Part shown: in pieces, positions 17,301 to 57,816 of the stretch
How positions within the stretch are numbered: the first letter of the stretch is position 1
Layout of the letters: each line of letters begins with the position of its first letter
The notes under the pieces: generated by a model
Seen by the model: the letters and a program-made list of their open reading frames with translations, nothing else
Told to the model about the DNA's origin: nothing
The model's database searches: none
Translations under genes and position numbers: made by a program
Assembly: GCF_009914755.1 (NCBI RefSeq)
Contig: NC_060930.1
Strand: one strand, 5' to 3'
Length of the DNA stretch: 64,000 nucleotides
Origin: the human T2T-CHM13v2.0 reference genome, Homo sapiens

Positions 17301-18287
<987 letters not shown>

Positions 18288-19145: not shown

Positions 19146-19930
<785 letters not shown>

Positions 19931-23461: not shown

Positions 23462-23999
23462 GTAATGATTCACTATTGTGGAGTAAGACTTTTTTTTTTT
23501 TGAGATGGGATTTTGTTGTATTGCCCAGGCTGGTCTCAAACTCCTGAGCTCAAGTGACCCTCCCACATTGACCTTCCAGGTGGGAGTTAGACTCTTAATC
23601 AGAAATTGGATACATTGTTGTAAAAAATCCAAGCCACGTGGAAGTGTATAAACTATCTGGAATTATCTTGTTTTCTATGTTCTCACTTGTTTCATTGTTC
23701 CTTTCGACTCCCTCCAGAATTTAGGTTCCTCAAAAGTGGGGCCCTGCCTATCCTGTCTTTGCTGTGCCTCCAGGCCCTGAAATTCTCCCTGGGCTGTAGC
23801 AGGGGCTCAAGTGAATGAACCCCAGGAGGCATCTTGGGTAAAAATTCAGTACGATTCTATCTTTGCTTTTGCAACTGCTTATCATGCACATATACATGAA
23901 CATGCAATCTCTCAACTTTTTAATTTCACCTAACGATATAACATGGAGAGCCTTTCGTGTTAGAACGCACAGGTTCACCTTACTCTATACATTATGGTG

Positions 24000-24227
24000 T
24001 AGATTCGGATTTTCGCCCTTGGCACCACTGACATTCTGGGCCAGATAATCCTATGTTTTGGGGGGTCATCCTGTGCACCCTGTTTAGCACCTAGCACCAT
24101 CCCTGGCCTCTGCCCACCAGATGCCAGTAGCACCCCTCCCCCACCGGCTGTGACAAACCAAAATGTCTCCAGGCATTGAGAAACGTCCCCTAGCAGGCAC
24201 AACACTGCCCCAGTTGAGAACCATTGG
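24000..24227 (+). mobile_element. MER20 DNA transposon
   Basis: GGCACCACTGACATT...CCCTGGCCTCT...GATGCCAGTAGCACC...GTTGAGAACCA motifs. Confidence 0.8.
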
Positions 24228-25036
24228 TGTAGGTATTTCATTTGCATCTATTCTCCTGTTAAGCCCCTAAGTATAGTTCCTTTATTGAAACAAGAGTCTG
24301 AGAAAGTAAAATTAAAATGTTAACCATGAATCTAACTTATGGAATTCAACCTTTGTAGCCAGCTCAATGCCCTGAAACCCATTGCTTCAAACTGATACGT
24401 GTATCTTTTCCTTAAAGTGTCATTATGAAAAATTTAAATCAAGAGTTTAACATCTTCTTAAAGGTGACCAGGGTAAATTTAATTAAGCAAATCACCAGGC
24501 TGCCTCCCAGACGAAGTCAGTATATAAGCCTGGAGACTCTTTCCAATGAGGAAAATACTGCTTCAGAAGCCCCTGGTGTGAACGATACTGCCAGTGCCAG
24601 GAGGGCCTGACTCTTCCTAGAGTCCTCTTTGTTATCAGCATCACCACTGAAAGATGGGCTCCATGTGGCCCTGCCTTCCCATGAGACCAGCGGGTCTGAT
24701 TCCTCATGTTTTGTTTAAGTGTCAGATTTGATGGACTGGGGGAGATGGAAGCAGAACTGTGCCACACTGAAAGGTGCCTGTAGCTGATATCTGCAAATGT
24801 AGGGTTAGCATGGAAGACTAATTCCAGCAGTTCTTTATTTTGGTGTTAGGGAGCTGGTCTAAACCTTCTTACAGAGGATAACCAAATTAGGTTGGGCTTT
24901 TAAAAGATTTAGTGGTGGTATTTTTGAGGAGATATAATTTGACCCATTGTATTGTGATGTTGAGCTATGAATAACTGGATTTTTAAAATGCCCATTGCTT
25001 TAAAACTGCCACCTATTAGAAAGTTTGGTATTTCTG

Positions 25037-25503
<467 letters not shown>

Positions 25504-25528
25504 TTAGCTGGGCGTAGTGGCACACATC

Positions 25529-26638
25529 TATCGGGGGAAATTCAGCCAGATATTGGGCGAAATTCACCCCCAATATTTCACGTAGGTTCTTTTCTATATT
25601 TCCTAAGTGTCGGCCGGTCTGAGAAATAAACGGACAGAGTACAAAAGAGAGAAATTTTAAAGCTGGGTGTCCAGGGGAGACATCACATGTCGGCAGGTTC
25701 CGTGATGCCCCCAAGCCGTAAAACCAGCAAGTTTTTATTAGTGATTTTCCAAAGGGGAGGGAGTGTACAAATAGAGTGTGGGTCACAGAGATCACATGCT
25801 TCACAAGGTAATAGAATATCACAAAGCAAATGGAGGCAGGGCGAGATCACAGGACCACGGGACGGGGCGAAATTAAAATTGCTAATGAAGTTTTGGGCAC
25901 CATTGTCATTGAGAACATCTTATCAGGAGCCAGGGTTTGAGAGCAGACAACCGATCTGACCAAAATTTATTAGGCAGGAATTTCCTTGTCTTAATAAGCC
26001 TGGGAGCGCTACGGGAGACTGGGGCTTATTTCATCCCTACAGCTGGACCATAAAAGACAGCTGCCGCCCCGAAGCGGCCATTTCAGAGGCCCACCCTCAG
26101 GGACGCATTCTCTTTCTCAGGGATGTTCCTTGCTGAGAAAAAGAATTCAGCGATATTTCTCCCATTTGCTTTTGAAAGAAGAGAAATATGTCTCTGTTCC
26201 GCCTGGCTCACCGGCAGTGAGAGTTTAAGGTTATCTCTCTTGTTCCCTGAACATTGCTGTTATCCTGTTCTTTTTTCAAGGTGCCCAGATTTCATATTGT
26301 TCAAACACACATGCTCTGCAAACAATTTGTGCAGTTAACACAATCATCACAGGGTCCTGAGGCAATATACATCCTCCTCAGCTTATGAAGATGATGGGAT
26401 TAAGAGATTAAAGTAAAGACAAGCATAGGAAATCACATGGGTATTGATTGGGGAAGTGATAACTGTCCATGAAATCTTCACAATTTACGTTCAGAGATTG
26501 CAGTAAAGACAGGCATAAGAAATTACAAAAGTATTAATTTGGGGAACTAATAAATGTCCACGAAATCTTCACAATTTATATTCTTCTGCCATGGCCTCAG
26601 CCAGTTGCTCCATTCGGGGTCCCTGACTTCCCACGAAA
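25529..26638 (-). mobile_element. MER11 solo LTR (HERV-K/HML-8 type) inserted into an AluS (25369-25528 and 26639-26800)
   Basis: Ends in GGGGTCCCTGACTTCCC (reverse of the MER11 start); near-TSD CACATC/CACACC; Alu resumes at CACCTGTAGTCCC. Confidence 0.85.
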
Positions 26639-26662
26639 CACACCTGTAGTCCCAGCTAGTCA

Positions 26663-26824
<162 letters not shown>

Positions 26825-26926
26825 TTACTATGATGCACCTGAACATTCAATTTTCATCTTAGTCTTCATTGAATTTAACAGAGAGAGGTTGTTCTTCAAG
26901 AGGAACTGTTTCTTATCCTGATTTAG

Positions 26927-27091
26927 GTAAGAAAGTACTCATTGTCTATGCACACCAGGAACCCAAGTCTTTCAACGGATCCTTGAAGAATGTGGCTGTA
27001 GATGAACTGAGCAGGCAGGGCTGCACCGTCACAGTGTCTGATTTGTATGCCATGAACCTTGAGCCGAGGGCCACAGACAAAGATATCACTG
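26927..27091 (+). CDS. NQO2: NQO2 exon 3 (GKKVLIVYAHQEPKSFNGSLK...DKDITG), FAD-binding N-terminal region
   Basis: TTTAG| acceptor, |GTGAGT donor, 165 nt; matches NRH:quinone oxidoreductase 2. Confidence 0.98.
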
Positions 27092-27154
27092 GTGAGTCAT
27101 GGGATAAATGCTCTATTTATAAAAACCATCTTTATGTTTTTTACTTTAAAAAAT

Positions 27155-29110
27155 GTTGACTTCCAGCTGCAAAATGGCATTATAGAAGCAAGCTAGCTTC
27201 ACTTTCCAAAAACAAATAGATAGCACTGGGATTATCACCAGCAGTATCCCAGAAGTCAAATATGAAGATGAAATAGTTCCCAAGACCACACATAAGTGAA
27301 ACAACTCCAAGCAGACGGTAAGAGATTGGACTATCATATCCACGACACCCCTCCCCACAAACTACCCAGCACCAGCTGTGTGGGAAATTTCCTCCCAAGT
27401 CACAGGTTCTACACTGGAAAAGAGATCAAGGGGGACAATCAGCTTCTCAATTTTCTGGGGTTCCCAGAAACAGGCAGGAAGGAGACCTGTTCCTGCCTCA
27501 ACCCACAGGAAGCATCAGGAGTGCCTAAAGGGAGAAATATCCCTGACAACAGCCAGAGACAAAGGAGGGAGATGGGAATATTGTCCCCAGCCCTGGAAAC
27601 TCTGATCTGTAACTTAGCCAAAGGAGATGCCAAACCAGAGTGGCTGTTCAGCAGCACCACACTGTAGGAGGTACATTCTGCAGGTTTCCTGGGCATGAGC
27701 TGCTAGCCAGCCTTCCCACACTACCATGCTATCCCCTTTGGAACCTCTCATATTCAGGACTGGCACACTCTGAACAGTAGGTTACTAGAGCTGAGGCAAA
27801 CGTGGGCATAAACCACCATCTAGTGCCAAAAAGCAGGTGGTGGCTTAGTAGAGGAAAAAAAAAAAATTTAATAAGAAAGTTGCAAAGACTTTCTAAGCAA
27901 ATATATGTAATAAAAATGAAAACAAGTCAGACATAGAAGACTGAAATAAATAGATGTCATCCACAAGAAACAACAGTAAACAGGGAACCATGACCTCTCC
28001 ACACAGACAAAGCAAGGAACCAGTGACTGAACCTAACGAGACGGCACTGTTTGGACTCTCTGACCAAGAATTCAGAATAGCACTTTTAAGGAAATGTGGT
28101 AATCCTCAAGATCACACAGAAAAGCAGTTCAGAAATTTATCAGTTAAATTTTACAAAGAGATTGAAATAATTTTTAAAAAATCAAACAGAAATCTTGGAA
28201 CTAGAAATACATTTGCTGAAAAATTCATTAGAGGCTCTCAACAGCAGAATGGATGAAGCAGAAGAAAAAATCAGTGAACTCAAAGGCAGGTGATTTGAAA
28301 ATACACAGAGGAGAAAAAAGAAAAAGGTATGGAGATTTCTTACAAAATATAGAAAATTACCTCAAAAGACCAAATCTAAGAATGATTGGTGCTTAAGAGG
28401 AAGCTGAGCAAGAGCAAGGCATAGCAAGCTTATTCAAAGAAATAATAACAGAAAAATTTTCCAAAACTTCAGAAAGAGATAAATATCCTGGTAGAGGAAG
28501 GTCATAGAATAAACAGATTTGACTCAAATAGGACTACCCCAAGGCATATAATTATTAAACTCTCAAAGGTCAAGAACAAAAAGAGGATCCTAAAAGCAAA
28601 TAACATGTAACAGAGCTCCAGTTCATCTGGCAACAGACTTCTCAACAGAAAACATATAGGCCAGGAGGTAGTGGGACATTTTCAAAGTGCTGAAAGAACA
28701 AAACTGTCAACCAAGAATACTGTACCCAGCAAATCTAGCCTTCAACTCTGAAAGAGAGAGAGTCTTTCCCAAACAAAGAAAAGCTGAGAAAATGCACCAC
28801 CACCAGACCCACCTTACAAGAAATGCTAAAGGGAATTCAATAAGAAAGAAAAACACTAATGTGCAAAAAGAAAACATTTGAAGATGTAAAACCCACTGGT
28901 AAAAGTAAGTACACAGAACACTCTAATACTGTAATTGTGTACAGTCCACTCATTACTAGTATTAAGTCTAACAGACAAATCTATCAAAAACAATAATCAC
29001 TACGTGACCTGTTAAGAGCCAAAGATAAGCAATATAAAATATGTAAATCAAGACACAGATACTCAAAAATGTGGAGGTGAGCATGAAATTAAAGCGTAGA
29101 GTTTATTTTT
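27155..29110 (+). mobile_element. Old L1 5' UTR and degraded ORF1
   Basis: ORF fragments 27954..28256 and 28687..28881 (LKEQNCQPRILYPA) resemble L1 ORF1p. Confidence 0.8.
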
Positions 29111-33493: not shown

Positions 33494-33785
33494 TCAGTGC
33501 CTCGGCCGTATCCATCACACATGGTGTCATGGAAACCAGGTTTCCACCAGCAACCTGGGCATGTTAGAGCTTCTGTGTCTGCTTGGTCCATTCACTTGGA
33601 TTGTCTCCTCCTCCTCTTGGGATGTCATTGTCACCTATGGATGGGAGTGTTGCATTTGTCCATCCCTGGAGGGTGTCCACACGCATGTTCCCTGCTGGCT
33701 GTGCTGAGCCCGTGTGCTGGAGGCTCAGCAACATTTCTGTCCTCTTCTGGAGTCCACACAAATGCATCTGCTTTCTCCCTTGCAG

Positions 33786-33887
33786 GGTAAACTAGCGCTC
33801 CTTTCCGTAACCACGGGAGGCACGGCCGAGATGTACACGAAGACAGGAGTCAATGGAGATTCTCGATACTTCCTGTGGCCACTCCAG
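33786..33887 (+). CDS. NQO2: NQO2 exon 6 (GKLALLSVTTGGTAEMY...WPLQ)
   Basis: TGCAG| acceptor, CAG|GTAGAC donor, 102 nt; TTGG flavin-binding motif. Confidence 0.98.
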
Positions 33888-33922
33888 GTAGACCAGCTGC
33901 GAGTGGCTCCCTTGCTTGTTGG

Positions 33923-36679: not shown

Positions 36680-37250
36680 TGTTTTTTGTTTGTTTTTAAT
36701 TTTAGCTTTAAGGAGCACATGGCCAGTACTGTTTCAGGGGAATATTGGGTGGCGCTGGGGTTTGGGCTTCTATTGATCCCATCACCCAAACAGTGAGCAT
36801 AGTTCCCAATAGATAGTTTTTCAACACTTCCTTTCCTCCCTTCCTTCCCGCTTTTGGATTCCCAGCATCTATTGATCCCGTCTTTTCACCCCTGTGTACC
36901 CAATGTTTAGTTCCCACTTATAAGTTAGAACATGGGGAATTTGGTTTTGTTTCTGTGTTGATTCACTTAGGATAATGACCTCCAGCTGCATCCACGTTAC
37001 TGCAAAGGACAGGATTTCATGTTTTTTTATGGCTGCATAGTATTCCATGGCGTCCGTGTACCACACTTTCTTTATCCAGTCCACTGTTGATGGGCACCTG
37101 GGTTGATTCCATGTCTTTGCTACTGTAAATAGTTCTGTGATGAACATACAAGTGCAGGCATCTTTTCATAGAATGATTTTTTTTTTCCTTTTGGTAGATA
37201 CCCAGTAATGGGATTGCTGGGTTGAAGGGTAATTCTATTTTTAGCAAACT
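36680..37250 (-). mobile_element. L1 3' end (L1PB/L1MA-type)
   Basis: Reverse ORF 36869..37147 (AKTWNQPRCPS...WIKK) is the L1 ORF2 C-terminus. Confidence 0.85.
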
Positions 37251-39759: not shown

Positions 39760-40870
39760 CCACATGCAGATGGAGGAACTTCCCTAAAAGCAAGTTTGAG
39801 GGATTAAATATCATCTTTGTCATCATATCCTCCTCTTTTCCCTTTTCCTCCTCCTCCTTGTCATCACTACTGAGGACAGCACTGCTGGCTGTGCCCAGGG
39901 GCCCTTCTTCCTCAACGCCCCCAGCACCACCCAAAGTCCCCCTCTGTGGAATCGGAGCACTGAGTGTGTTGGCCTCAGGGACACTGAAGGAAGCCGCCCG
40001 CCCGTCCTCTCAGCCTTGGAGTCTGTTCAACCATTATCATTCAAACCACCTTCCATCAAAGGTTTGAATACAATGAGCAGCTGCTCCTGCATTCCTCCAG
40101 GACACAGGTTCACCAGCTGGGTGTCTGTCAAAGACAATGAGCCTCCGAGTTGGTCCAAACTTGACTCTCCTTGAAGGTCTTCTCTGGCCATCCTCAAAAT
40201 CCACAGGATGAAATGTGTTCGATGAGGACAACTCACTCGTGTCGCGGCGTTTGGATGGGCTGCGGCGTGGCCGCTTCTGCCGTAGAGACGGAGCCTTCCT
40301 GTGGTTCGCGCACTTCCTTCCTGAAGCCTCATATTTCCCATTCCGTTGATACTTGGCCACCTCAACCTGCAACGTGCAGTTTCCAGTGTCATCTTCATCC
40401 AAATGCATGAATGCAAGATCCACAGCTTCCCTCTTCCAATGATCGCACAGCCTGTCTCCTTTAAGATGTCCTTGGTTATCTCTGTAAAACTTGACCTTAA
40501 GTTCTTCTGTCTGGGGATCGCTCATAATAATGCCAAATGGACAGGCGTGTGAATGCCTCCACGGTAACGACCAGAGGCAAACCGGCACATACACGTTTGT
40601 ATTTCTCCTTCTTCAGCATGAAGCCTTCCTTTTTCTCCCCTCTTTGTGGGATCAGTGGGTTTGGGGTTTTTCTTGGTGGCAGAGCAGCGCCGTCACCGAG
40701 CAGCCGTCGCTGGCCTGATATGCAGCGGTGAAGTCTTCACTGGTTTCTCTTCTGCTCCTGTGTGCTTGCAGAAACCGGGCTGGCTCTTGATTGGGATTGT
40801 AGGCTGCAGAGGCTGGGGAAGGGCAGACAGCCTCGGGAGACACGCCGGAAAGGGCGGCTCCCTCGTGCTC
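39760..40870 (-). pseudogene. HTATSF1P2: Processed HTATSF1 (Tat-SF1) pseudogene, frameshifted and internally deleted
   Basis: Intronless homology: FGIIMSDPQTEELKVKFYRDNQGHLKGD, FHPVDFED, FDRHP, CIQTFDGRWF (RRM/UHM); C-terminal EEGPL..SSDD..DI* with TAA at 39804-39806. Confidence 0.92.
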
Positions 40871-41305
40871 CTCAGTGACTCAGGGTTTTGGCCACATAGC
40901 TCCCCTCCTCCACCCTCGCTCAGCAGGCTGCATCCGGGGCGGGGCTGGCAGGCAAAGAGGCTGTGTCACAGCCCTTCAGAGCCTCAAGCTGGGGTCCCTA
41001 GGGTTTCTGGACCTCAGATCACTGTGAGGCAGGAGGTCCTCCACCCTCCCTCCGGCAACTCTGAAGTATGGGAAGGTGCGTTCTCGAACTGCCGAGGGGC
41101 CTGTTCCTGTGTGGGTTGAGAGGATGGGAAGTTGCTGAAATCCAACCTCTCTGAGAGCCGGTGCTGTCACCTTGGCCTGAGTATGCTGAAGACATTAATT
41201 CCGGTTCCCAAGCAAAACTGTTAGCAATTCGAGGGCTGGGCTCTTGCCTATGTCTCATCTCCTGTTAGTACCGGGCACCCTGATACATTTTCTGCCGGTT
41301 TTTAA

Positions 41306-42653: not shown

Positions 42654-44422
42654 TCAACCAAGCTATGTGGTGTTCATAAGGGTAGCCCCTCCTCCGACCC
42701 CAGGAGTGGCAGTTCACAGCCCTGACTGATCACAGTGTTCCGTGGCCTAGCTGTAACCACCCCAGGGAGTGAGACTGAACTCAGGGGTTCATTGGACCTA
42801 TCAGGAAAGAGAGACCTTTCTTGTTTCTGGACTTGGAGCTGTGATGAAGTAAGTGGGTCAGGGGCCAACACATAGACAGCGTTGGCCTACAAATGCAGCC
42901 CAGGCAGAGGACGGTGCAGCCAAGCCACACAGAGAGACAACTTCCTAGTGACACGCTGTGAACTCCTGCATCCACCCCTGCCTGAACTGGAGCTTTTCCT
43001 CTTCAGCTCTTCAGTTATGTGAGGCAAGATGTTGCCTTTTTTGCTTAATGCTGTGAGTTGAGTGTACAGCAGTTACAATCAAAGAATCCTAAATAATGCT
43101 GCAAGCATGGTGACTATCTACATGGGAATATGCAGTACTCCAGTGAAGACAAAACATAAATTAATTTTGGAATCTGATGACCATAATCTAAAAACATTCA
43201 TAGAGGTATATAAAAATTATAACAAAATTTAAAGTAGCATATCTCCTCATGAAGCAGGTTAAGTGTATACACAAAGAAGGAGGAGGAAAAGGTGAGAAAG
43301 AATCTGCCCTTGTGGGGAAGTGACAGAGGCAGAAGAGGCTGATGCAGTCCTGCATCCAGGCCCAGCTCTGCCAGCAGCTGAGTACCCCTGAACAAGCTCC
43401 CCCACCTCTTCGGGCCTCACTTTCCCCATCTATGAAAGAAAGGGAGTCTAGCTTCCATAGCTGCCCCAGCTGATACGCAAGGTGCCAGTGTGTCCTCAGT
43501 CCTGTCAGGAGAAACCTTCCCCACTAGAATCCCAGGAGGAGCTTGAAATCCTGTCTGGGATCCTGACGGCCCAGGTGCTGACCCTGCCTCGGGTTGTGTC
43601 TGCTAAGAAGTCTGATTTCTGCTCATCTCTCCCCATTTCTTTCTTCCCATAAAGTGGGCTGATGCGCTGGAACGTCGATGCAGCCAGTGATGTGTTTGAT
43701 GAGAATGTATTGAGAGTAAAGCTGCCCAGAATCCAAGTGTGTGTCATCTGAACTCTTGAATCATGGATGGAAGGTATGTCCTCTGTTGATGTCTCGCAGC
43801 CTGAGCTGACAATCTGTAAGAAGGTTTTGTTATCTTCATGTTACAGATGGTGAACCGAAACTTACAGAGCTCAAGTCACTTGACCAGGCTCCACCCCTAC
43901 AAGAGGCAGCACGCAAACTAAAAACCAGGCGGCCTTTTCCAAAGCTTGTGCTCTGCTCCACTGCTGGAAGGAACCCTTCGGGGAATTGAAGCAGCACTGA
44001 ACAAAGGCCATTTTTAAGAAGCGACACCAGAAACCTAAGGCGGGGTCCCCGGCTCAACAAGGATCTCATGTTTTGTGGGTCAGAGATTCTTGTGTCGTGT
44101 CTGGGTGAGGTCAAAAACCATGCAGAGACTTTCACTTCCTGTTCTGTGGCAGACAAGACATCTGAAAAGCTCTCCTGCAGCAACACTTCTAGATGCCAAG
44201 TAAATCACAGCAAGTGCACTTTTAAATGTGTTACTAAGATCATAAAAATGAAGGAAAATGCCCAAGCATATCCCCAACCCCTCACCCCACAACCACCACC
44301 ACCACAATAAACAAGTTGCTGACAGTGGATTGGCAAGCGAGAGTGGAACCTTAGGCTGCGTTGGCATCAAATACTAATAACCAAGCAAAAGGGAGCAAGA
44401 CCAGGCCTGGGGGCTGTGCCAT

Positions 44423-45639
44423 TGAGAGGTGACCGCGTGCTGGCAGTCCTCACAGCCCTCGTTCGCTCTCGGCGCCTGCTCTGCCTGGGCTCCCACTTCG
44501 GCGGCACTTGAGGAGCCCTTCAGCCCGCCGCTGCACTGTGGGAGCCCCTTTCTGGGCTGGCCAAGGCCGGAGCCGGCTCCCTCAGCTTGCAGGGAGGTGT
44601 GCAGAGAGAGGCGCGAGCGGGAACCGGGGCTGCGCGCGACGCTTGCGGGGCAGCTGGAGTTCCGGGTGGGCGTGGGCTTGGCGGGCCCCGCACTCAGAGC
44701 AGCCGGGCGGCCCTGTCGGCCCCGGGCAATAAGGGCTTAGCACCCGGGCCAGCGGCTGCGGAGGATGTACTGGGTCCCCCAGCAGTGCCAGCCCACGGGC
44801 GCTGCGCTCGATTTCTCGCCGGGCTTTAGCTGCCTTCCCGCGGGGCAGGGCTCGGGACCTGCAGCCCGCCATGCCTGAGCCTCCCCCACTCTCCGTGAGC
44901 TACTGGGCAGCCCAAGCCTCCCCCAAGAGCGCCGCCTCCTGCTCCAGGCGCCCAGTCCCATCAACCACCCAAGGGCTGAGAAGTGCAGGCACAGGGCGCG
45001 GGACTGGCAGGCAGCTCCACCTGGGTGAAGCCAGCTGGGCTCCTGAGTGTGGTGGGGACGTGGAGAACCTTTATGTCTAGCTCAGGGATTGTAAACACAC
45101 CAATTGGCACTCTGTATCTACCTCAAAGTTTGTAAACACACCAATCAGCACCCTGTGTCTAGCTCAGGGTTTGTGAATGCACCAATCCACACTCTGTATC
45201 TAGCTATTCTGGTGGGGCCTTGGAGAACCTTTATGTCTAGCTCAGGGATTGTAAACGCACCAATCAGCACCCTGTCAAAACAGACCACTTGGCTCTACCA
45301 ATCAGCAGGATGTGGGTGGGGCCAGATAAGAGTATAAAAGCAGGCTGCCCTAGCCAGCAATAGCAACGAAGTCGGATTTGTTTCCATGCTGTGACGGTTT
45401 TGTTTTTTTGCTTATTGTAATAGCTTTTGCTGTTGTACTCTTTTCTGGTCTACACTGCGTTTATGAGTTGTAACAGTCGTCACAAAGGCCTGCAGCTTTC
45501 ACTTTCTGCCTCAGCCAGCGAGACTGCAAACCCACCAAAAAAAAAACTTAACTGTCACACCCACCCTAAGGGTCTGCAGCTGGGTTTTTGAAATCAGACC
45601 AAGAACCCACCAATTCAGAACCCACCAATTCGGGACACA
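44423..45639 (+). mobile_element. Solo LTR12 (ERV9 LTR, LTR12C/E-like)
   Basis: TGAGAGGTGA..GCTGGCAGTCCTCACAGCCCTCG start, repeated CACCAATCAGCAC/CTAGCTCAGGG units, GGACACA end, TSD CCAT (44419-44422, 45640-45643). Confidence 0.92.
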
Positions 45640-45699
45640 CCATGTGGGCAGCTGAATCAAGACTTTGTGGAGGAGCTCCAAAGTGGGTAGAAAAGTACG

Positions 45700-47900
<2,201 letters not shown>

Positions 47901-49149
47901 TATTCAGGATAGTAATGTGATGGGAGGGGGCACACAGGTGTTTGAAGGTATTTTTAATGATCTGTGTCTTCAGCTAAATGGTGAGAACTCAAGTATTCAT
48001 TTCACTGTCATGTATAAGTCAATTTCTATACAGTTTACTTTTATACATGTGAAATAGTTTGTGATAAGAAAGAGTAATATAAAATAAATCTGGATGCATA
48101 TTGTGTTAAAAATCCTCTTGGCCAGGCACAGTGGCTCACACTTGTAATCCTACCACTTTGGGAGGCTGAGGTAGGGGAATTGCTTGAGCCCAGGAGTTGG
48201 AAACTAGCCTGGGCACCATAGTGAGACCCTATCTCTACAAAGTATTTTTTTTAAAGTTAGCTGAGCATAGTAGTACATGCCTGTGGTCCCAGCTACTCGA
48301 GAGGCTGAGGTGGGAGGATCACTTGAGCCCAGAAGGTTGAGGCTGCTGTGAGCCATGATCACACTACTGCACTCCAGCCTGGGTGATAGAACAAGAACCT
48401 GTCTCAAAACAAAACACCACTTGTTCCCCCGCCAACACCAAAACTTCTTGAGGCCTACCACCGAGGCAGGGCATGTTGCTTTGGGGACAATAGCTGAGTC
48501 AATGGCACCTTCAGAGTCCACACGGAGGTCTCCTTGGGAGTGTGAGCCCTGAACACTCAAGGGCATGTCCACCCTAGTGGACACATGTCCATGAGCCTGT
48601 GCAGGATGTAAACTCAACAGTGACCCCAGAATGGCAGGGTCAAAGCCCCCATGCTAGAGGATAAATCAGACTTTGCTATTATCTCACCTCTCAAGGTTTG
48701 AAAGAAAACACTCAGCATTCTTGTGCTATTAAGGGTGGAAGGGCGGCTATTAAGGGCATTTAGGGACCGATGAGATGAACTGGATTTTGTTTTTGTTTTG
48801 AGGCAGGGTTTCACTCTCGCCCAGGCTGGAGTGCAGTGGCACGATCATGGCTCACTGCAGCCTCGACCTCCCAGGATTTCCCACTCCTGTGCAGCAGAGG
48901 ATGCCAGGTGCACTTGATGTCGGGCTGGCTGTCACGAATATGCCCTTGAGCTGCACAGGCTGCAGGTGGCAGCAGGGCCCTGGGACAACCTCACAGACCC
49001 GCCCCACTGACGCTGGCTCCTAGAGAGGTGGTTGCTGGCCGATCTATCAGGGGCTTCTCCTTTTTGCCATATTCAGATTGGAGCCATAAATTAAATTCTC
49101 AGGAGAAAAAATTAAGCTACTTTTAGAAGTCATGAAACATGGGCTTTGG

Positions 49150-50215
49150 GGATCAGGATTAAAAACTTTAACAATAACATTGCTTAATTCTCAACTCCTA
49201 TTCTTGGTAGGATGAACTGAAACCAGTGATTTTACCATTATGTACAATATTTTTTCTTTTGAAGGGCCTGAACAGACGGTTCCAAATCCAGGCTGTATCA
49301 TTATAATCACAGTTTCCCTGGCTCACACTTCAGCGTTTTGCCTTTCATGCATCTCTCTCTGGCACAGAAGCTATTTGCCCATTTGTCTTCCAGAAAGACG
49401 AGAAGTCTTATAGGGATTTCTGAAATGAGAATGCGCCACACTAGGGGTGGGTGAGGTGCCCACATAATCGAAGCCGTGAGACATTGCCACTGCCAGATTT
49501 CTCCCCATTACCTGTATCACCACCCAAAGAGGATGGGTCTCAGGCTCCCAGGATCTTTGGCCATTCTTTCTGCTTTGTATTAGGTATCAAATTCCCTTGT
49601 GCTTGGAGGAGAAGAAAACCTAAACATTCTTATGATCAGATTGATATTTGTCAGGGTAGGACCATGGCTAAGAGCAAAAGTCAGTGCCCTGGTGAATTCA
49701 ACATGCAGCATGAACTATTATTATTCTCAGAAGGACAAGGCTAAAACCTCTCACCTAGAATAGCCACATTATATCAGACTTTTCATAAAGTTTAGTTATT
49801 TCATTTGGAGAGGGCATAGATTTATTCCATCTTATTTTCCAAGACTGTGTATTGTAAAATTAGACGAAAGTAAACCTTATAAGTTATCCCTTAAAATAGT
49901 GTAAAATGATCACCATTTTAAGAGTATGTACTAAAAGTCTTACTTTTCAGCTTTGACTACAGTGATGCATTTGCTAATGGTTTTCTTCTTCCTTGAATTA
50001 TGACTAAGAGGAATTTTTTCCCCATGAGGTTCTTTCACTGCTCATGACTTAGGTAAGAAAGTGGTCATCATCTACGTGCATCCTTGAAGAACATGGGTGT
50101 GGGTGAACTGAGCAGGCAGGGCTGCACAGTCACTGTGTCTGATTTACATGCCATGGACTTTGAGCCAAGGGCCACAAGGAAAGACATCGCTTGTGAGTTA
50201 CTGGATTAATTAATG
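49150..50215 (+). pseudogene. Unprocessed partial NQO2 duplicate (intron 2 remnant plus exon 3 copy at 50053-50192)
   Basis: GKKVVIIYV/SLKNMGVGELSRQGCTVTVSDLHAMDFEPRATRKDIA with TTAG| and |GTGAGT; 25-nt frameshifting deletion; upstream sequence aligns with NQO2 intron 2. Confidence 0.92.
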
Positions 50216-51137
50216 TCTTAGTCTCTTCTTTAAGGATTCCCTTTCTTTCTTCTTAAGAAACTGTCCCACTATGACCACATATTGAACGGCATAACAAGGG
50301 CCAGGAATAGGGGTTTAGAGAAAGGAACTAATGGTACTCCTTAACATTTCCAAAATATAAACATACACCCATAGTTCAAGTGCAGACAAATGAATGCCCT
50401 CAGTCACTACTCAGGAGGTACCTCCCAAGCTTATGCGCTTGAGATGCATTTTCATCATTACTAGAATATAACAACCTTGGCCAGGTGTGGTGGCACACAC
50501 TTCTAATCGTAGCACTTTGGGAGGCCAAGGCAGGAGGATTGCTTTAGCCCAGGAGTTCAAAACCCACCTGGGCAACACAGTGAGACCCAGTCTCTAGTTT
50601 AAAAAAAAGAAAGAAACAACTTCATTTGTCTCCAAATTTTGCATTGGTCGTATTTGCCTTTCTCAATATTTTCCGAATGTCAAGTATAGATTTCTTAATA
50701 GAGTGTCCTAGTCAGTTCTAGCTGCTATAACAAAATACCATAGACTGGTGGCTTATCAACAACAGAAATTAATTTCTTACAGTTCTGGATGGTGAAAGTC
50801 CAAGATCAGGGTGCCAACACAGTCCGGTCCTGGTGAGGGCCCTCTTCCAGACTACATGCTGCCAACTGCTCGTTGTATCTCACATGGTGGAAATAGGGTG
50901 AGAGATTTCTCTGAACAGCTGGGACTACAGGCATGCACCATCACGCCTGGCAAATATTATTTTTTATTTTTTGTGGAAGTGGGATCTGGTCTCTCTGTGT
51001 TGCTCAGGCTGGTCTTAAAACTCCTGGGCTCAAGCGATCCTTCTGCCTTGGCCTCTCAAAGTGCTGGGATTACAGGGGAGAGCCACCATGCCTGGCCACT
51101 TAAAATTGTTGAATTTTATCATATGTAAATTATTCCC

Positions 51138-51560
51138 TGTAGTGGGATGAATTGTATCCCCCTCAAAAGGCATGTGCAAGACTTAACCTTTGGTACCTGA
51201 GAATGTGATCGTATTTGGAAACAAGGTCTTTGCAGGCATAAGTAAGTTAAGGATCTCAAGATGAGACAATCCTGAATCTAGGGTGGACCCTAAACCCAGT
51301 AGCTGTGTTGTTATAAGAGAAAGCAGAGAGAGATTTGAGACCCAGAGAAGCCTCCGAGGGGAAGGCCATGTGAGGCTGGAGGCAGAGACTATAGTGAGGC
51401 TGCTGCAAGCCAAGGGCACCGATGATTACCTACGCCCACTAGGAACCAGGAGAGAGGTATGGAACAGATCTACCCTCACAGTCTCCAAAGGGAACCAGTC
51501 TTGTCGACATCTTGACTTCAGACTTCTGGCCAGATCTATGAGACAATGAAATTCCATCAT
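51138..51560 (+). mobile_element. MLT1-type MaLR LTR
   Basis: TGTAGTGGGATGAATTGTATCCCCC...GAATGTGATCGTATTTGGAAA...GACTTCTGGCC. Confidence 0.75.
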
Positions 51561-52277
51561 TAAAAAAAAAAAAAACAGAAAAAACAAAAACAAAACCAAA
51601 AATACCCTCCAATGATCCATTACAAATATTCTAGAAACCAGGAGAAAGGAGAAAGTCTCAGTAAAGAAATCGAAGATATAAAAAAGAAACAGGCCAGGCA
51701 CGATAGCTCACGCATCTAATCCTAGCACTTTGGGAGACCAAGGTGGGAGGATCACTTGAGACCAGGAGTTCGAGACCAGCCTAGGTAACATAGTGAGAAC
51801 CCATCTCTACGAAAAATAAAAAAAAAATTAGGTGGGTGTGGTGGCACGTGCTTGTATTCATAGCTACTTAGGAGGCTGAAGCAGGAGGATTGCTTGAGCC
51901 CAGAAGTACAAGGCTGCAGTGAGCTGGGATCACGTCACTGCGCTCCAGCCTGAGTGTCACAGTTATACTGTCTCGAAAATAAAAAAACAAAAAGAAGCAA
52001 ATGGAAATTTTACAACTGAAAAATACAATAACCAAAATACAATCTCAAACTCCAAACAACATAAACTGACAGAAATACACATCCAGATATATCATAGCAA
52101 AACACATGAAAATAAGGATAAAGAAAAACTCTTGAAAGCAGGCAAAGAAAAAATATATATATTACCCATAGGGGAACAACAATTCAAATGGCTGCAGATT
52201 TCTCATTAGAAACCATTTATCTCAGCAATACAGAGAACTAGAGATGGAAAATCATCAAGGAGATGACATTCCATCAC

Positions 52278-52727
52278 TGGTATGGTTGGGATGTGTGTCC
52301 CCTACGAATCTCATGTTAAAACGTGACCTCCAATGTTGGAGACAGGCCTAGTGGGAGGTGTTTGGGACGTGGGGGCAGATCCCTCATGCATGGCTTGGTG
52401 CCGTTCCCTTGGTGATGAGTGAGTTCTCACTCTATTATCTAGTTGAAACAGCTTATCTATTATCCAGTTCACATGACAGCTGATTGTTTAAAAGAGCCTG
52501 ACACCTCCTCCCTTCTATCTCTCTCTCTCCCTCTCTCACCATGTGATAAGCTGGCTCGTCTTGCCTTATGCCATGATTAGAAGCTTCCTGAGGCCTCCCC
52601 AGAAGCCAAGCAGATGCTGGTGTTGTGCCTGTACAGCCTGCAGAACCATGAGCCACATAAACATCTTTTCTTTATAAATTACCCAGCCTCAGGTATTCCT
52701 TTATAACAATGCAAAACAGGCTAACAC
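52278..52727 (+). mobile_element. MSTA-type MaLR LTR
   Basis: ATCTCATGTTAAA...CCCAGCCTCAGGTATTCCTTTATAACAATGCAAAACAGGCTAACACA. Confidence 0.8.
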
Positions 52728-55700
52728 AATCATTAATCAACTAGATCCAATGAACATGTATATTACGCTCCATCCAACAATGACAGAAAACACATTCTTT
52801 TCAAGCACACCTGGAACATTCACCAAGATAGATCATACCCTGCAGCTTAACAAATTTGGAAAAATTGGAATCATACAAAATATGTTATTACCATAATAGA
52901 ATTAAACTATAAATCAATAAAAGGAAGACAATAGAAAAAACACCAAACACTTGGAAATTAAACATACTTATAAGTGACCCATGGGTCAAAGAAGTCTTCA
53001 GAGAGATTAGAAGTATTTTTAACTGAGTGAAAATGAAAATACAACATATGAAAATATGTAAGATGCAACTAAAGTAGTCCTTAGAGGGAAATTCACAGCA
53101 TTAAAATGCTTACATTAGAAAAGGGGGTCTTGAATCAATAATACCAGCCTACACCTTAAGAAATAAAAAAAGAGTGAAACGTACCCAACACGAGCAGAAG
53201 GAAGGAAATCATAAACAGGAGTAGAAATCCATACAATTGAAAATAGCAAACAGTAGGGAAAATGAAATGAAAACAAAAGCTGATTCTTTGAAAAGGTCCA
53301 TGAAACTGATAAATCTCTGTAAAGATTGATCAAGCAAAAACGAAGACACAAATTACCGACATTAGAAATTGAAGGTGGGAGATCACTACAGACCTGCAGA
53401 CATTCAAAATCTAATAAGCTAACAAAAGAATACTGTGGAGTCCTAATTAGAGAAAGGGAGTCAGGCTGGCAGGTCCAAGGGAAAGCAAAAAGAGAAAGCA
53501 GGTAAGTTACAAGTCTGCCTTTCTTCATGGTCCAGAACGCATCGCCCTTCCGCACAAATAACTCACAATCCTGCACCCAGCTAGACACCTGCAAGTTAGC
53601 TCCGTGCAGTCTTGGCTTTATCAGTACTGCACAAAGCCCTCTTCGGCATAAACACTACCCTATACAATCTCCACAAGCCTTTGTTTCTTTGTAGTCAGCC
53701 TCCACTGACTTGCCCATTGTCTCCCTGGCAAAGTATTTTCCTACTTTATCTAATAAATCTGCCATTCTTTACCTACAACTGTCTTGGTAAATTCTTACAC
53801 TCCCACACCACTGGCCCAGATAGTCACCACTCACCCATGACATTTCTGGGTCCTTCTGGGATCTCTCCGTACAGGGGAACACTCTCCTCATGGGGAATTC
53901 TCTTGCCTCTCTCTTTCTCTTTCCCAACTCGGGAACCTCGGTGGACAGCGTCTAAGCACAGAGACAGTTGCAGGTCTCTGGCTGGGGCTATACTCCCGTG
54001 GGACTGAAAGGTGCTTGTGTGGAAACGTCTGACCGCCACTGCCCAGGTCAGGTGAGGGACCTAAGTCCTTTTCTCTTTTCGTCTGTCGGCTGCCGTTTCT
54101 TAATAGTTCTTTGGTAATTGAGGGTAACTGGCAAGGGCCACTGTCCAGCATTGCCTGAAGGCCAAAGAGTGAATGGGGTCAGCTGCCCTGCCCGGAAGGG
54201 GAAAAGGCTCGCCTCTCTTTTCTGATTGTAGTCCCTACGTGTGCTGCAATTGACATGGAAGCCCATTCAGGGCAAATTCACACACGTTTCGGGTGGCTCA
54301 GACCCTCTGTCTCAGTCCAAATTCTAGGGAGTCACCCAGCCGTCCTGTTCCAGATGTTGCCAAATTAGGTAATTTCAGACAGCCTCAGAATAGTGAGTCT
54401 TCCCCTCCCCGTTCCCTTTCCTGGGCTGGCACCCGTGGAGATCTTCTTGTACCCTTCCTTCCTCATACAATACCCAAAATACAATCTCAAACTCCAAACA
54501 TGGTTGATCACCCAGTGTGAGTGAGAACCTGGACTGGCTGTCCACCCGTAGGGCCCCCTGGATGATCTTTACTAATAGGTGGGATGCCCCTTTATACAGT
54601 GCACCCCAAGTCCCTCAGCAGACATATGTGGAACTTGGCAAACATCTCGGCATTCATCTTGGCAGGATGCCCCAAGCAGAAGTGTGGTTCGTGACCCTGA
54701 CTGGCACTGCCCCCGAGGGGTGTGCTTTCCAGTTCCGCCATGGAACAAACCCCGTCTATTCCTTCAGACTCACTGATAGGCTGCATCCTAAAGCAATAAG
54801 ACAAATTTAACCCTCAGACTCTCAAAAAAAGAAATATCTAATTTTCTTTTGTAACACAGCATGGCCCCTATGAAGGAAATCCTCAGATTAACCTCCTCAG
54901 TCTTTATAATCGAAAGCAAATTAAGGAAAACAGGGCTAAGGAAAAGAAAAAAACAAAATGCAGGGACAAGAGGCAGGTCCAATGGTTGGCTGCTTTACAA
55001 GCCCCCAGCTTCTCCAGGTTTCCCTAAGGACACTCCTCCAAATAACTGCCATCTGTGCAAAAGCCCAGGCCACTAAAAGGCAACTTACCCAATAAAATAA
55101 ATGGGGAAAAGCTGTACACAGCTTATCCACTCTGCCACAAGCTTAGCCACTGGAAACAGGATTGCCCTGAAAGCTGAAGGAGCCCCAGAACAAAAATTCA
55201 ACCCCCAGTGGCCTTAATCTAAAGGGGCTCTCTGCTCCAGCTGAAAACAGCTCAACTTAACTAGTAACTTGTGGAGGTGGGAAACATTTGTTCCACATTC
55301 TGTGGGTCTGAAGTGCTAAAGCTTTCTGTGATGGGAGATAAAGTGGAAAAGAGTGCTAGCTCCACACCATGCAGTAGCTGGGAGGCTCACAAGCCCTCCT
55401 GTAAAGCTGAACCCTTGCCTCTCCACTCTTTCTTTTCCTTTTCTCTTTATCTGTTCAATCCAAAGATCCAGCCTTAAAAGGGAAAGACAATTTCTAACAT
55501 CCTAATCTTTGATTTTGTTGTTCTCTTTAACACTCCAGCTGCTTGCATATTATGGCCTGTTTTCATGTACATTTTAAACTTATGGGCAAGTTGCAACAAG
55601 AAAAATTCAGAGCTCAAATGGTTAACCTGCCTTATAGAGTTAAATAAAGTTTTCTAAAGCTCTTTATTGTCCTCTTTTTTCTATCTGCCTTGGATCAAGG

Positions 55701-55739: not shown

Positions 55740-55968
55740 TTATTATTATTATTATTATACTTTAAGTTTTAGGGTACATGTGCACAACGTGCAGGTTTGT
55801 TATATATGTATACATGTGCCATGTTGGTGTGCTGCACCATTAACTCGTCATTTAGCATTAGGTATATCTCCTAATGCCATCCCTCCCCCCTCCCCCCACC
55901 CCACAACAGTCCCCAGAGTGTGATGTTCCCCTTCTTGTGTCCATGTGTTCTCATTGTTCAATTCCAAC
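55740..55968 (-). mobile_element. 5'-truncated young L1PA 3' end
   Basis: TATACTTTAAGTTTTAGGGTACATGTGCACAACGTGCAGG; 16-bp TSD CTCTAACAGGTGCTCT (55724-55739, 55969-55984). Confidence 0.92.
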
Positions 55969-56635
55969 CTCTAACAGGTGCTCTCGAGTGCAGGTTTCTA
56001 ATAACTTTGGAAATTGTAACATTAGAATAAAGAAAAAACTTCCCAGACTCTCATTAAAAGCTAATGTGTTCATAAATATCGAGCAGAACAGAAGTTAATT
56101 ACATAAACTAAACTAATGGAAAACTAAAATAATCTCTTTGTAGCTTTCTGTTTAAAACATTGTTAACTCTTTTGCTTTTCAAAGTCCATAAAAACTTTTC
56201 TCTTTTAAGCTATTTACAGCCTTTAACAATTGGCTAAAGTATAATCTTGTAACCAAAATTTAAAGCATATCTTACTCTCTACCTGATTTCTCCAGAATGT
56301 AAAAGCTATTTGCAAATATACTTAATTTATGGTACTATAGTTATTTGCATATATTCATTCAAAATCTATTTTCTGGCTGTGTGTCTTGGCCCATTTTCTG
56401 GCTGTGTGCCATGGCTCATGCCATCACGGATACTATAGTTATTTGTTTATATTCATTCAAAATCTATTTTCTGGCTGTGTGCCATGGCCAATTTTCTGGC
56501 TGTGTGAAAATCTATTTTCTGTTTTCTGGCTGTGTGCCATGGCTCACGCCTGTAATCCCAGCACTCAGGCAGGTGGATTGTTTGAGCTTAGGTGTTTGAG
56601 ACCAGTCTGGGCAATGTGGCAAAATCCTGTCTCTA

Positions 56636-56797: not shown

Positions 56798-57512
56798 TCA
56801 AAAAAAAAAAAAAGGAAAAAAAATCTGTTTTCTTTTGTAACAGGACACAATTGGAGACACTGGTTATTTTACCAAGCTTTAACTGGAATGGCATGCTTTT
56901 TTGGGGGGGCGGAATCAAAGTTAACTTATAAAGCCAATAAAAGTTCCTTGGGAAAGCTGGCCTCATACCTTATCTACACAGTCCCTGTGCAGGGTTCCTA
57001 ACCTGTGATAACTAAAGAATGTCACTTTCTAACAGGCCCAGGAGCCCCAAGTTATCTTGGGACCTCAAGAGGAAAAGAATTTACCCAACTCTTACAGGTA
57101 TTTAATGGCACAAACCCATAACTGGCCTTAAGGCATTAAATTCAAATCTGAGATTCTCTATGGAATAAAGTTTCAGCAAAACCAAATTTAAAAAGTAGAA
57201 GAGTCTATATGCAAAATAATTATTCTTGCTAACTTTATGCAAATACTCAAGCCAAGTTTAATAAGGCTAAAACTTATTTTACCAATAGATTTGTTCTATT
57301 ATAATTTGTTCTTAGTAAACTGGAAAGAAAAATTATGTTTCAGAAAAGCTGTAGTACATCTGTCATCAAATTCTAGTCTTGTTCACTGCTTTAAAGTTTT
57401 TTATTATTTTCCACAATTTTAACTAAATCCTGAATTCTTTCTGGGCTATAAGTTCCCAATGCATTCAACATTTTTTTCCTTTTATTTTTCTAATTTAAAC
57501 TCAATGGAGTTC

Positions 57513-57816
<304 letters not shown>

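What the first reader, a model, noticed from the sequence alone, without database searches (positions are those of the whole stretch)
49150..50215. Hidden ancient tandem duplicate of NQO2 (intron 2 plus exon 3) with both splice sites intact
Seen: 50053-50192 is a 140-nt copy of the 165-nt exon 3, with TTAG|GTAAGA and |GTGAGT preserved and a 25-nt deletion removing the HQEPKSFNG region. The ~900 bp upstream aligns block by block with NQO2 intron 2 (e.g. 24859 CTAAACCTTCTTACAGAGGATAACC vs 49741 CTAAAACCTCTCACCTAGAATAGCC; TCACCACTGAAAGATGGG vs TCACCACCCAAAGAGGATGGG), about 70% in the block I counted. It lacks the Alu/MER11 insertions at 25037-26800. Inference: a DNA-level duplication older than those insertions, i.e. 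the remnant of a lost second NQO2 gene. Many exon differences are synonymous or conservative, suggesting it was once functional. The ORF track does not show it and I do not recall it being annotated.
Basis: partly seen in the sequence, partly recalled or inferred. Interest (0 to 1): 0.8.

Follow-up and report, generated by a model that had tools for sequence, protein, structure and literature searches.

The report
Old dead copy of NQO2 exon 3
About 23 kb downstream of the human NQO2 gene lies a very old, broken genomic copy of one NQO2 exon with parts of both neighbouring introns; it is an ordinary kind of gene relic that does not appear in the supplied gene table.

Summary
Window 49133-50301 (+) is a single-copy relative of NQO2 24286-24937 plus 26804-27189. 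That is the 3' part of intron 2, exon 3 and about 100 nt of intron 3.

- **Identity:** the exon is 82% identical (115/140). The adjacent intron flanks are 65-66% identical. The distal intron is 57.5% identical overall (nhmmer E 5e-10).
- **Exon state:** both splice dinucleotides are kept. A 25-nt deletion shifts the frame onto a TGA.
- **Young insert in the parent:** the intron blocks lie on a diagonal 1758 nt from the exon block. That offset matches young interspersed repeats present only in NQO2 intron 2.
- **What it is:** an unprocessed, DNA-duplicated pseudogene fragment, in the same orientation as NQO2. It is far older than those repeats.
- **Other exons:** no relic of any other NQO2 exon turned up in the same orientation. 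I searched 37.5-82 kb and, for the exon 3 and exon 7 peptides, the whole genome.
- **"Once functional":** suggestive only. Pairwise dN/dS is 0.23. The relic side carries 8 amino-acid changes, where neutral decay at half the intron divergence predicts 15-22 (P <= 0.016). An internal codon-position estimate is not significant.
- **Literature:** four searches found no description.
- **Aside:** a mosaic inverted duplicate of the NQO2 5' region lies just beyond the window.

Interest is modest.

The parts
49133..49819 (+). Relic of the distal 3' part of NQO2 intron 2 (parent 24286-24937); patchy homology
   Evidence: nhmmer E 1.1e-8 and 5e-10. 57.5% of 616 columns identical, 70.3% of 138 high-confidence columns. 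Best Smith-Waterman block beats 100 of 100 shuffles. Single copy in the genome.
49936..50052 (+). Relic of the last ~120 nt of intron 2, with pyrimidine tract and AG acceptor (parent 26804-26926)
   Evidence: 66.1% of 115 columns identical. Part of the nhmmer hit at E 2.2e-37.
50053..50192 (+). Relic of NQO2 exon 3: 140 nt against 165 nt in the parent (26927-27091)
   Evidence: 115/140 identical. tblastn E 2.5e-14. Whole-genome peptide search ranks it second after NQO2 itself, at 74% and E 7.5e-11; NQO1 scores 49%.
50076..50087 (+). Site of the 25-nt deletion (exact placement ambiguous within a few bases) and the TGA it brings into frame at 50085-50087
   Evidence: Single 25-column gap in the exon alignment. 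The two halves of the peptide lie in different frames. GTG CAT CCT TGA read directly.
50193..50301 (+). Relic of the first ~100 nt of intron 3, with GTGAGT donor (parent 27092-27189)
   Evidence: 65.3% of 95 columns identical. Inside the nhmmer hit at E 2.2e-37.
26927..27091 (+). Parent: NQO2 exon 3
   Evidence: Hub gene table; translation.
24954..26803 (+). Stretch of NQO2 intron 2 with no counterpart in the relic (1850 nt against 99 nt): young interspersed repeats inserted after the duplication
   Evidence: Diagonal shift of 1758 between the intron and exon blocks. Alu-type matches at 25038-25529 and 26643-26773. 25560-26640 is 91-94% identical to many genomic copies.

Best explanation
Window 49133-50301 is an unprocessed (DNA-duplicated) pseudogene fragment of NQO2.

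An old local duplication in direct orientation copied at least the 3' part of intron 2, exon 3 and the start of intron 3. The copy now sits 23.1 kb downstream of the parent exon and is dead. A 25-nt deletion removes the QEPKSFNG codons and puts a TGA in frame, and no other NQO2 exon survives beside it on the same strand. It does nothing that can be inferred from sequence; it is decaying DNA.

Shown here:
- homology of the exon and of both intron flanks
- single-copy status in the genome
- the frameshifting deletion
- the absence of other exon relics
- that the duplication predates the Alu/LTR insertions in the parent intron

Inferred:
- An age near or before the radiation of placental mammals. 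This rests on an intron divergence of about 0.46-0.63 substitutions per site and on recalled mammalian neutral rates.
- With roughly 55-60% confidence, that the copied exon stayed under purifying selection for a good part of that time. That would mean it once belonged to a working second NQO2-type gene whose other exons were later deleted.
For: - Exon homology: blastn E 1.4e-33, tblastn E 2.5e-14, 115/140 identical.
- Intron homology on both sides: nhmmer E 2.2e-37 for 26804-27189 ~ 49936-50301, and E 1.1e-8 / 5e-10 for 24286-24937 ~ 49133-49819.
- Collinearity: two independent intron blocks share one diagonal. That diagonal is 1758 nt from the exon block's, which equals the parent-only repeat insert.
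- Not an interspersed repeat: DNA searches of the whole genome return only the query itself, or the query plus NQO2 exon 3. The exon 3 peptide has 3 matches genome-wide: NQO2, the relic and NQO1.
- Closer to NQO2 than to NQO1: 74% vs 49%. Identity to mammalian NQO2 proteins reaches 84-86%.
- Lesion: 25-nt gap and change of frame.
- Past constraint, rates: dN 0.130, dS 0.560, ratio 0.23 over 46 codons.
- Past constraint, polarity: of the 11 replacements, 3 are on the human NQO2 side, because the relic keeps D46, F47 and R53. Those states are seen in 75, 151 and 136 of 151 NQO2 proteins. The other 8 are on the relic side.
- Past constraint, simulation: neutral evolution of these 46 codons gives 15-22 changed residues for a per-lineage d of 0.20-0.31, and P(<=8) <= 0.016 (6000 replicates per setting). 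Half the intron divergence is 0.23-0.31.
Against: - Only one exon is found. The whole-gene part of the story rests on an assumed later loss of exons 1, 2 and 4-7.
- The constraint test depends on the intron-derived neutral distance. At d = 0.12-0.16, P(<=8) is 0.05-0.29.
- An internal estimate I made by hand is not significant, at roughly p = 0.2. It compares the 12 differences at codon positions 1+2 with the 13 at position 3.
- Six of the 8 relic-side replacements fall at positions at least 95% invariant in 151 NQO2 proteins, and 7 of the 8 states occur in 0 of 151. That is how a sequence free of constraint behaves.
- No distinct second NQO2 clade appears among the proteins retrieved. The entries named "-like" (sloth, tenrec, vampire bat) sit with their own orders' NQO2.
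- The relic peptide joins primate NQO2 in a 40-row tree (SH-aLRT 86, long branch, 20% of columns filled). If real, that placement would mean a younger duplication than the intron divergence suggests.
Confidence: 0.85

Rival explanations
1. Fragmentary duplication that was never part of a working gene. A segment of one to a few kb, carrying only exon 3 and its flanks, was copied downstream and has decayed neutrally ever since.
For: - Detectable homology stops at 49133 and 50301. nhmmer finds nothing further upstream (22000-24300 vs 44400-49200) or downstream (27092-28560 vs 50193-52170).
- No same-strand relic of exons 1, 2 or 4-7 in 37.5-82 kb. The exon 7 peptide has no third match in the genome.
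- Relic-side replacements hit invariant NQO2 positions.
Against: - The exon is 82% identical where the flanking introns are 65-66%.
- dN/dS is 0.23.
- There are 8 relic-side amino-acid changes where 15-22 are expected after neutral decay at half the intron divergence, P <= 0.016.
- At this divergence, loss of detectable intron homology says little about where the duplication really ended.
Confidence: 0.3
2. The exon 3 relic and the inverted copy of the NQO2 promoter, exon 1 and intron 1 just beyond the window (equivalent 67805-75521, minus strand) are two pieces of one second NQO2 gene. On this reading the gene was later broken by an inversion, and its 5' piece was partly homogenised with NQO2 by gene conversion.
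For: - The inverted copy exists, and for the exon 1 region it is the only other full-length copy in the genome.
- Its identity to NQO2 is a mosaic: 96.3%, 95.5%, 90.3%, 88.4% and 78.4% by block. That pattern fits an older duplicate patched by conversion.
Against: - Even its most diverged blocks (78%) are much closer to NQO2 than the relic's introns are (57-66%).
- Strand and order do not reconstruct a gene with a single inversion. This is my reasoning from the coordinates.
- No relic of exon 2 links the two pieces.
Confidence: 0.1
3. The exon is better kept than its flanks because it is used today, for example as an exon of an unannotated non-coding transcript or as a regulatory element. On this reading there was no past protein-coding constraint.
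For: - AG acceptor and GTGAGT donor are both intact.
- The exon is more conserved than its flanks.
Against: - The excess conservation sits at codon positions 1 and 2: differences by position are 8, 4 and 13. That is a protein-coding signature.
- The hub table has no gene or functional-element row at 49-50.3 kb.
- Transcription could not be tested here.
Confidence: 0.05
4. A chance resemblance, a shared repeat, or a processed (retro-copied) fragment.
For: None found.
Against: - E-values range from 1e-33 to 1e-37.
- Intron flanks align on both sides.
- The sequence is single-copy in the genome.
Confidence: 0.01

Closest known systems
NQO2 (the parent gene; exon 3 at window 26927-27091)
   Same: Same exon, with the same splice junctions and flanking intron sequence. 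115/140 nt are identical, and the peptide is 78% identical over aa 20-56.
   Different: It has a 25-nt frameshifting deletion and 8 relic-side amino-acid changes, 7 of them to states seen in 0 of 151 NQO2 proteins. No other exon lies beside it. The relic also keeps older states that human NQO2 has changed: F47 and R53.
Unprocessed (duplicated) pseudogenes and exon relics left by tandem gene duplication; the beta-globin cluster pseudogene HBBP1 is the example I recall, and it was not examined here
   Same: Made by DNA duplication near the parent. It keeps intron sequence and splice signals and carries a disabling lesion.
   Different: It is reduced to a single exon and is much more diverged (introns 57-66% identical) than typical annotated cases. 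That probably explains why it has no row in the gene table.
NQO1 (chromosome 16), the known paralogue of NQO2
   Same: Same flavodoxin-like fold family. The exon 3 peptide of NQO2 matches the corresponding NQO1 exon.
   Different: NQO1 is 49% identical to the NQO2 exon 3 peptide, against 74% for the relic. The relic therefore comes from the NQO2 branch, long after the NQO1/NQO2 split. PMC11586865 places that split about 450 million years ago (passages read).
Inverted duplicate of the NQO2 5' region (window 12361-21744 ~ equivalent 75521-67805, minus strand)
   Same: A second partial copy of NQO2 in the same NQO2-RIPK1 interval.
   Different: It has the opposite orientation, covers different parts of the gene (promoter, exon 1, intron 1), and is much more similar to NQO2, at 78-96% by block.

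Membership tests
Unprocessed (duplicated) pseudogene | Significant homology to an exon of a parent gene | tested here: met
   blastn E 1.4e-33; tblastn E 2.5e-14; whole-genome peptide search E 7.5e-11.
Unprocessed (duplicated) pseudogene | Keeps the parent's intron sequence and splice junctions, so it was copied as DNA rather than from mRNA | tested here: met
   Both flanks align: 66.1% of 115 and 65.3% of 95 columns. nhmmer E 2.2e-37 and 5e-10. AG and GTGAGT are present.
Unprocessed (duplicated) pseudogene | A disabling lesion | tested here: met
   25-nt deletion, frame change, and a TGA two codons later.
Unprocessed (duplicated) pseudogene | No protein product or transcript | not testable with these tools
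   No expression data are available here. The hub table has no gene row at this position.
Functional NQO-type quinone reductase gene (Pfam Flavodoxin_2, PF02525) | A complete set of coding exons with an open frame | tested here: not met
   Only exon 3 is found, and its frame is broken.
Functional NQO-type quinone reductase gene (Pfam Flavodoxin_2, PF02525) | A match to the family profile | tested here: inconclusive
   The 40-residue relic piece matches 0 families at E <= 0.01. The intact 54-residue parent exon matches PF02525 at E 3.2e-9. The relic piece is too short for this to count against homology.
Functional NQO-type quinone reductase gene (Pfam Flavodoxin_2, PF02525) | N-terminal HQEPKSFNG stretch (its role in flavin binding is recalled, not tested) | tested here: not met
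   The QEPKSFNG codons are removed by the deletion.
Processed pseudogene | Intronless copy of the mRNA, several exons joined, poly-A tail | tested here: not met
   A single exon with intron flanks on both sides. No adjoining exon 2 or exon 4 sequence.
Interspersed repeat | Many dispersed copies in the genome | tested here: not met
   One or two matches genome-wide. True repeats nearby gave 1537-7957 candidates with the same tool.

The most novel reading that the evidence does not exclude
The fragment is the last trace of a third mammalian quinone-reductase gene: a tandem NQO2 paralogue that arose near or before the placental radiation. On this reading the gene stayed under purifying selection for more than half of the time since then and was lost on the primate lineage. 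It may still be intact, or recognisably broken in different ways, in other mammals. Eight relic-side replacements correspond to only about 0.09 substitutions per site of neutral decay, against 0.23-0.31 for the flanking introns.
Probability: 0.3. Interest if true: 0.5.

Novelty: new member of a known kind. Interest (0 to 1): 0.3.

Why it matters
NQO2 is treated as a single-copy gene whose only paralogue is NQO1. Its odd biochemistry is the subject of current evolutionary work (PMC11586865, passages read). A relic showing that NQO2 was once duplicated adds a small footnote to that history, more so if the copy lived for tens of millions of years. It also gives a concrete locus to check in other mammals.

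Practically, it is one more unannotated exon-like sequence with intact splice signals. Aligners or variant callers could confuse it with NQO2 exon 3, although at 82% identity the risk is low. If the fragment never functioned, it is simply an ordinary piece of genomic debris.

Tried and rejected
- **Alignment with very cheap gaps.** It produced a 79%-identical chain across everything. I discarded it as overfitted and used shuffles, diagonals and nhmmer E-values instead.
- **100-nt tiles along the expected diagonal.** Clear signal came only at 24820-24969 (z 10.9 and 5.8) and 24620-24719 (z 4.8). Two isolated tiles further upstream reached z 4.3. nhmmer found nothing upstream of 49133, so I do not claim extension there.
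- **Two weak same-strand hits downstream in gene order.** These were 28607-28738 ~ 52168-52313 (E 0.007-0.05) and 36690-36923 ~ 55757-55974 (E about 0.003), and they looked like an extension of the relic to the 3' end of the gene. One partner of each pair was searched genome-wide and is an interspersed repeat: 55740-55990 gave 2113 candidates and 28570-28790 gave 1537. I recognise the sequences as LINE-1 by recall only. Rejected.
- **11002-11374 ~ 52313-52729 (E 2.6e-39).** This is an interspersed repeat with 7957 candidates. Rejected.
- **Exon 6 region 33729-33890 ~ 57466-57625 (E 0.009).** The target lies inside an Alu-type copy. Not accepted.
- **Second-copy promoter idea.** The bidirectional promoter between HTATSF1P2 and LOC101927759 (about 40.8-41.0 kb) lies close to where a second copy's exon 1 would be expected. 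It shows no homology to the NQO2 promoter or to its inverted copy; the only match is an Alu.
- **Search for an intact orthologue among predicted proteins.**
  - The exon 3 query gave 425 proteins at E <= 0.001 among 433 candidates, of which 120 were listed.
  - The relic query gave 110 among 124 candidates, with best identity 86%.
  - None of the 151 retrieved proteins shares 7 of the 8 relic-side states.
  - This is weak evidence, because those states may all postdate inactivation and the 305 unlisted proteins were not seen.
- **First peptide alignment.** The second half of the relic was in the wrong frame, so its identity counts are void. Corrected.

Full report
**1. What is there**

I read both regions. 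Window 50053-50192 is a 140-nt copy of the 165-nt NQO2 exon 3 (26927-27091), with 115 of 140 aligned bases identical and one 25-nt gap.

- blastn of the NQO2 locus against everything downstream is dominated by Alu-type repeats (525 segments). Its one non-repeat match in this neighbourhood is 26809-27109 vs 49941-50210, 67.7% over 303 columns, E 1.4e-33.
- A protein built in a script from the six annotated coding parts matches at aa 20-56 (50078-50188, 78%, E 2.5e-14). It also matches weakly at aa 3-12 (50052-50081), in a different frame.
- The acceptor (cttag|GTAAGAAAG) and the donor (|GTGAGT) are both present. The last exon base is T where the parent has G.
- The deletion takes out the QEPKSFNG codons plus one base. 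The parent's frame then reads GTG CAT CCT TGA. Neither half contains a stop in its own frame.

**2. The intron homology is real and collinear**

It is 24859-24953 vs 49741-49836, 63/94 identical. The score is 20, against 13.0 +/- 1.45 (max 19) in 100 dinucleotide shuffles, and 12 for the reversed sequence.
The exon block lies on diagonal 23124.
- The difference of 1758 nt is the size of a stretch present only in the parent intron. That stretch consists of Alu-type copies and a ~1075-bp element that is 91-94% identical to many copies elsewhere (2222 candidates). I did not test the name MER11.
- nhmmer gives 24286-24937 ~ 49133-49819 at E 1.1e-8 (20-kb target) or 5e-10 (local target). It gives 26804-27189 ~ 49936-50301 at E 2.2e-37.
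- Both intron segments match only themselves in the whole genome. Repeats nearby return thousands of candidates with the same tool.

The detectable relic is therefore 49133-50301, 1169 bp. It was copied as DNA, and it lies in the same orientation as the parent exon, 23.1 kb downstream of it.

**3. How diverged, and how old**

| Region | Identity | JC distance |
|---|---|---|
| Exon | 82.1% of 140 columns | 0.20 |
| Intron 2 flank next to the exon | 66.1% of 115 columns | about 0.45-0.47 |
| Intron 3 flank next to the exon | 65.3% of 95 columns | about 0.45-0.47 |
| Distal intron block, all columns | 57.5% of 616 columns | 0.63 |
| Distal intron block, high-confidence columns | 70.3% of 138 columns | not computed |

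The synonymous distance in the exon is 0.56, with a standard error I calculate at about 0.19.

Two copies in one genome have had equal time, so each side carries about 0.23-0.31 substitutions per site. From recalled figures for the human lineage (roughly 0.16 since the common ancestor with carnivores and rodents), this points to a duplication near or before the placental radiation.

That date is an inference with wide error. The locus is subtelomeric, where rates may be higher. A 40-row protein tree also puts the relic peptide in an unresolved group with primate NQO2 (SH-aLRT 86, branch length 0.46, only 20% of columns filled). I regard that placement as unreliable, but it pulls towards a younger date. 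Either way the copy is far older than the primate-specific insertions in the parent intron.

**4. Was there a whole second gene?**

I found no other piece of one on the same strand.

- tblastn of the NQO2 protein over 37.5-64 kb gives only exon 3. I then fetched the next 18 kb of the genome and searched 37.5-82 kb, with the same result.
- nhmmer with each exon plus 200-nt flanks finds nothing for exons 4, 5 and 7, and only Alu-type matches for exon 2. For exon 6 it gives two weak hits (E 0.009 and 0.019). The plus-strand one lies inside an Alu-type copy. The minus-strand one was not followed up.
- Genome-wide, the exon 3 peptide has three matches: NQO2, the relic at 74%, and NQO1 at 49%. The exon 7 peptide has two: NQO2 and NQO1.
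- Two weak downstream hits in gene order looked promising but turned out to be interspersed repeats.
- The promoter at about 40.8-41.0 kb lies where a second copy's exon 1 might have been. It is not homologous to the NQO2 promoter.

If a complete second gene existed, its other exons have been deleted. At an expected identity of about 74-82% they would have been found.

**5. Was the copy ever under selection?**

- Over the 46 intact codons, dN = 0.130, dS = 0.560 and the ratio is 0.23. Differences by codon position are 8, 4 and 13. A pairwise ratio mixes both lineages, so I polarised the 11 replacements on 151 NQO2 proteins retrieved.
- At three sites the relic has the common state and human NQO2 the odd one. 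D46 is seen in 75 of 151, F47 in 151 of 151 and R53 in 136 of 151. The window's L47 is, by recall, the known F47L polymorphism.
- The other 8 replacements are on the relic side: L7V, V9I, A11V, V25M, A26G, D28G, Y43H and T57A. All but V9I are to states seen in 0 of 151.
- Simulated neutral evolution of these codons gives 15-22 changed residues for d = 0.20-0.31, with P(<=8) <= 0.016. At d = 0.16 the probability is 0.05-0.07, and at d = 0.12 it is 0.23-0.29 (6000 replicates per setting). Eight changes correspond to about 0.09 substitutions per site of neutral decay, roughly a third of the intron-derived figure.
- Taken at face value, the exon was protected for more than half of the time since the duplication.

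Three things count against this:
- The comparison of codon positions within the exon, done by hand, is not significant (about p = 0.2).
- Six of the 8 relic-side changes hit positions that are at least 95% invariant in NQO2. That fits a late neutral phase, but it gives no positive sign of function.
- No second NQO2 clade is visible among the annotated proteins I could see. The sloth, tenrec and vampire-bat entries named "-like" sit with their own orders.

Gene conversion is an unlikely explanation for the better-kept exon, because synonymous sites are as diverged as the introns. I put "once part of a working gene" at roughly 55-60%.

**6. Is it known?**

- The supplied RefSeq table has no row at 49-50.3 kb.
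- Four full-text searches found nothing about a second copy. They were NQO2 + pseudogene (49 papers, 15 listed), NQO2P (1 paper), NQO2 + segmental duplication (5) and NQO2 + tandem duplication (9).
- I read passages of three papers:
  - PMC11586865 discusses only the NQO1/NQO2 duplication. The terms tandem, synten- and RIPK1 each occur 0 times in it.
  - In PMC6017951, "NQO2P" is an artefact of table labels such as NQO2_Peromyscus.
  - In PMC9652883, NQO2 appears only in a reference.
- Genome-browser self-alignment tracks and pseudogene catalogues could not be consulted and may well list it.

**7. Verdict**

The core reading also holds: an old DNA-level duplicate, in direct orientation, that predates the Alu/LTR insertions and is not annotated. 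The larger reading, a lost second NQO2 gene that once worked, is plausible and has some statistical support, but it is not shown. This is a new member of a very familiar kind of object, an unprocessed pseudogene fragment, and I score it at modest interest.

**8. Seen on the way**

Just beyond the right edge of the window there is an inverted duplicate of the NQO2 5' region.

- Window 12361-21744 holds NQO2-AS1 exons, the bidirectional promoter, exon 1 and intron 1 with its alternative exons. It matches window-equivalent 75521-67805 on the minus strand.
- Block identities form a mosaic: 96.3%, 95.5%, 90.3%, 88.4% (two blocks) and 78.4% (the promoter plus exon 1, and the distal end).
- The copied promoter still has 34 CpGs at 73% G+C, and it keeps the exon 1 donor.
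- It is much closer to NQO2 than the exon 3 relic is, so I treat it as a separate event. The mosaic pattern remains unexplained.

Noticed in passing
Outside the window: L003 3805-9000 and L004 1-2521 (window-equivalent 67805-75521, minus strand), paired with window 12361-21744: An inverted duplicate of the NQO2 5' region: NQO2-AS1 exons, the bidirectional promoter, exon 1 and intron 1. Block identities form a mosaic of 96.3, 95.5, 90.3, 88.4 and 78.4%. The copied promoter keeps 34 CpGs at 73% G+C and the exon 1 splice donor. The exon 1 region has only these two full-length copies in the genome. The hub's list of nearest genes after the window shows nothing between SERPINB8P1 and RIPK1.
   Followed up: partly
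window 27064-27066 (codon 47) and 27082-27084 (codon 53) of NQO2 exon 3: This assembly encodes L47, where all 151 retrieved NQO2 proteins, including the database human entry, have F. By recall this is the known F47L polymorphism. Human D53 is also unusual: R is seen in 136 of 151 and D in 2. The relic keeps F and R.
   Followed up: partly
window 25560-26640: A ~1075-bp interspersed repeat inside NQO2 intron 2, 91-94% identical to many genomic copies (2222 candidates). It is probably a solitary LTR.
   Followed up: partly
window 52313-52729 and 11002-11374: Two copies of an older interspersed repeat, about 73-76% identical to its other full-length copies (7957 candidates). They produced a strong but irrelevant same-strand match between the NQO2 upstream region and the stretch just downstream of the relic.
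   Followed up: yes
window 55740-55990, 28570-28790, 36690-36923: Fragments of interspersed repeats that imitate collinear homology between NQO2 and the region downstream of the relic. 55740-55990 is 95-97% identical to many copies (2113 candidates). 28570-28790 is about 80% identical to many copies (1537 candidates). I recognise them as LINE-1 by recall only.
   Followed up: yes
Proteins P0098, P0080, P0115, P0021: NQO2 entries named "-like" in sloth, lesser hedgehog tenrec and vampire bat group with their own orders' NQO2. The "-like" label therefore reflects naming, not a second clade. The 104-aa roundleaf-bat entry sits on a very long branch (1.07-1.42) and looks like a faulty or partial model.
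   Followed up: partly
window 40700-41100: HTATSF1P2 (minus strand, ends at 40792) and LOC101927759 (plus strand, starts at 40965) start back to back in a moderately G+C-rich stretch (0.60-0.64). It looks like a bidirectional promoter and is not homologous to the NQO2 promoter (hub table).
   Followed up: partly
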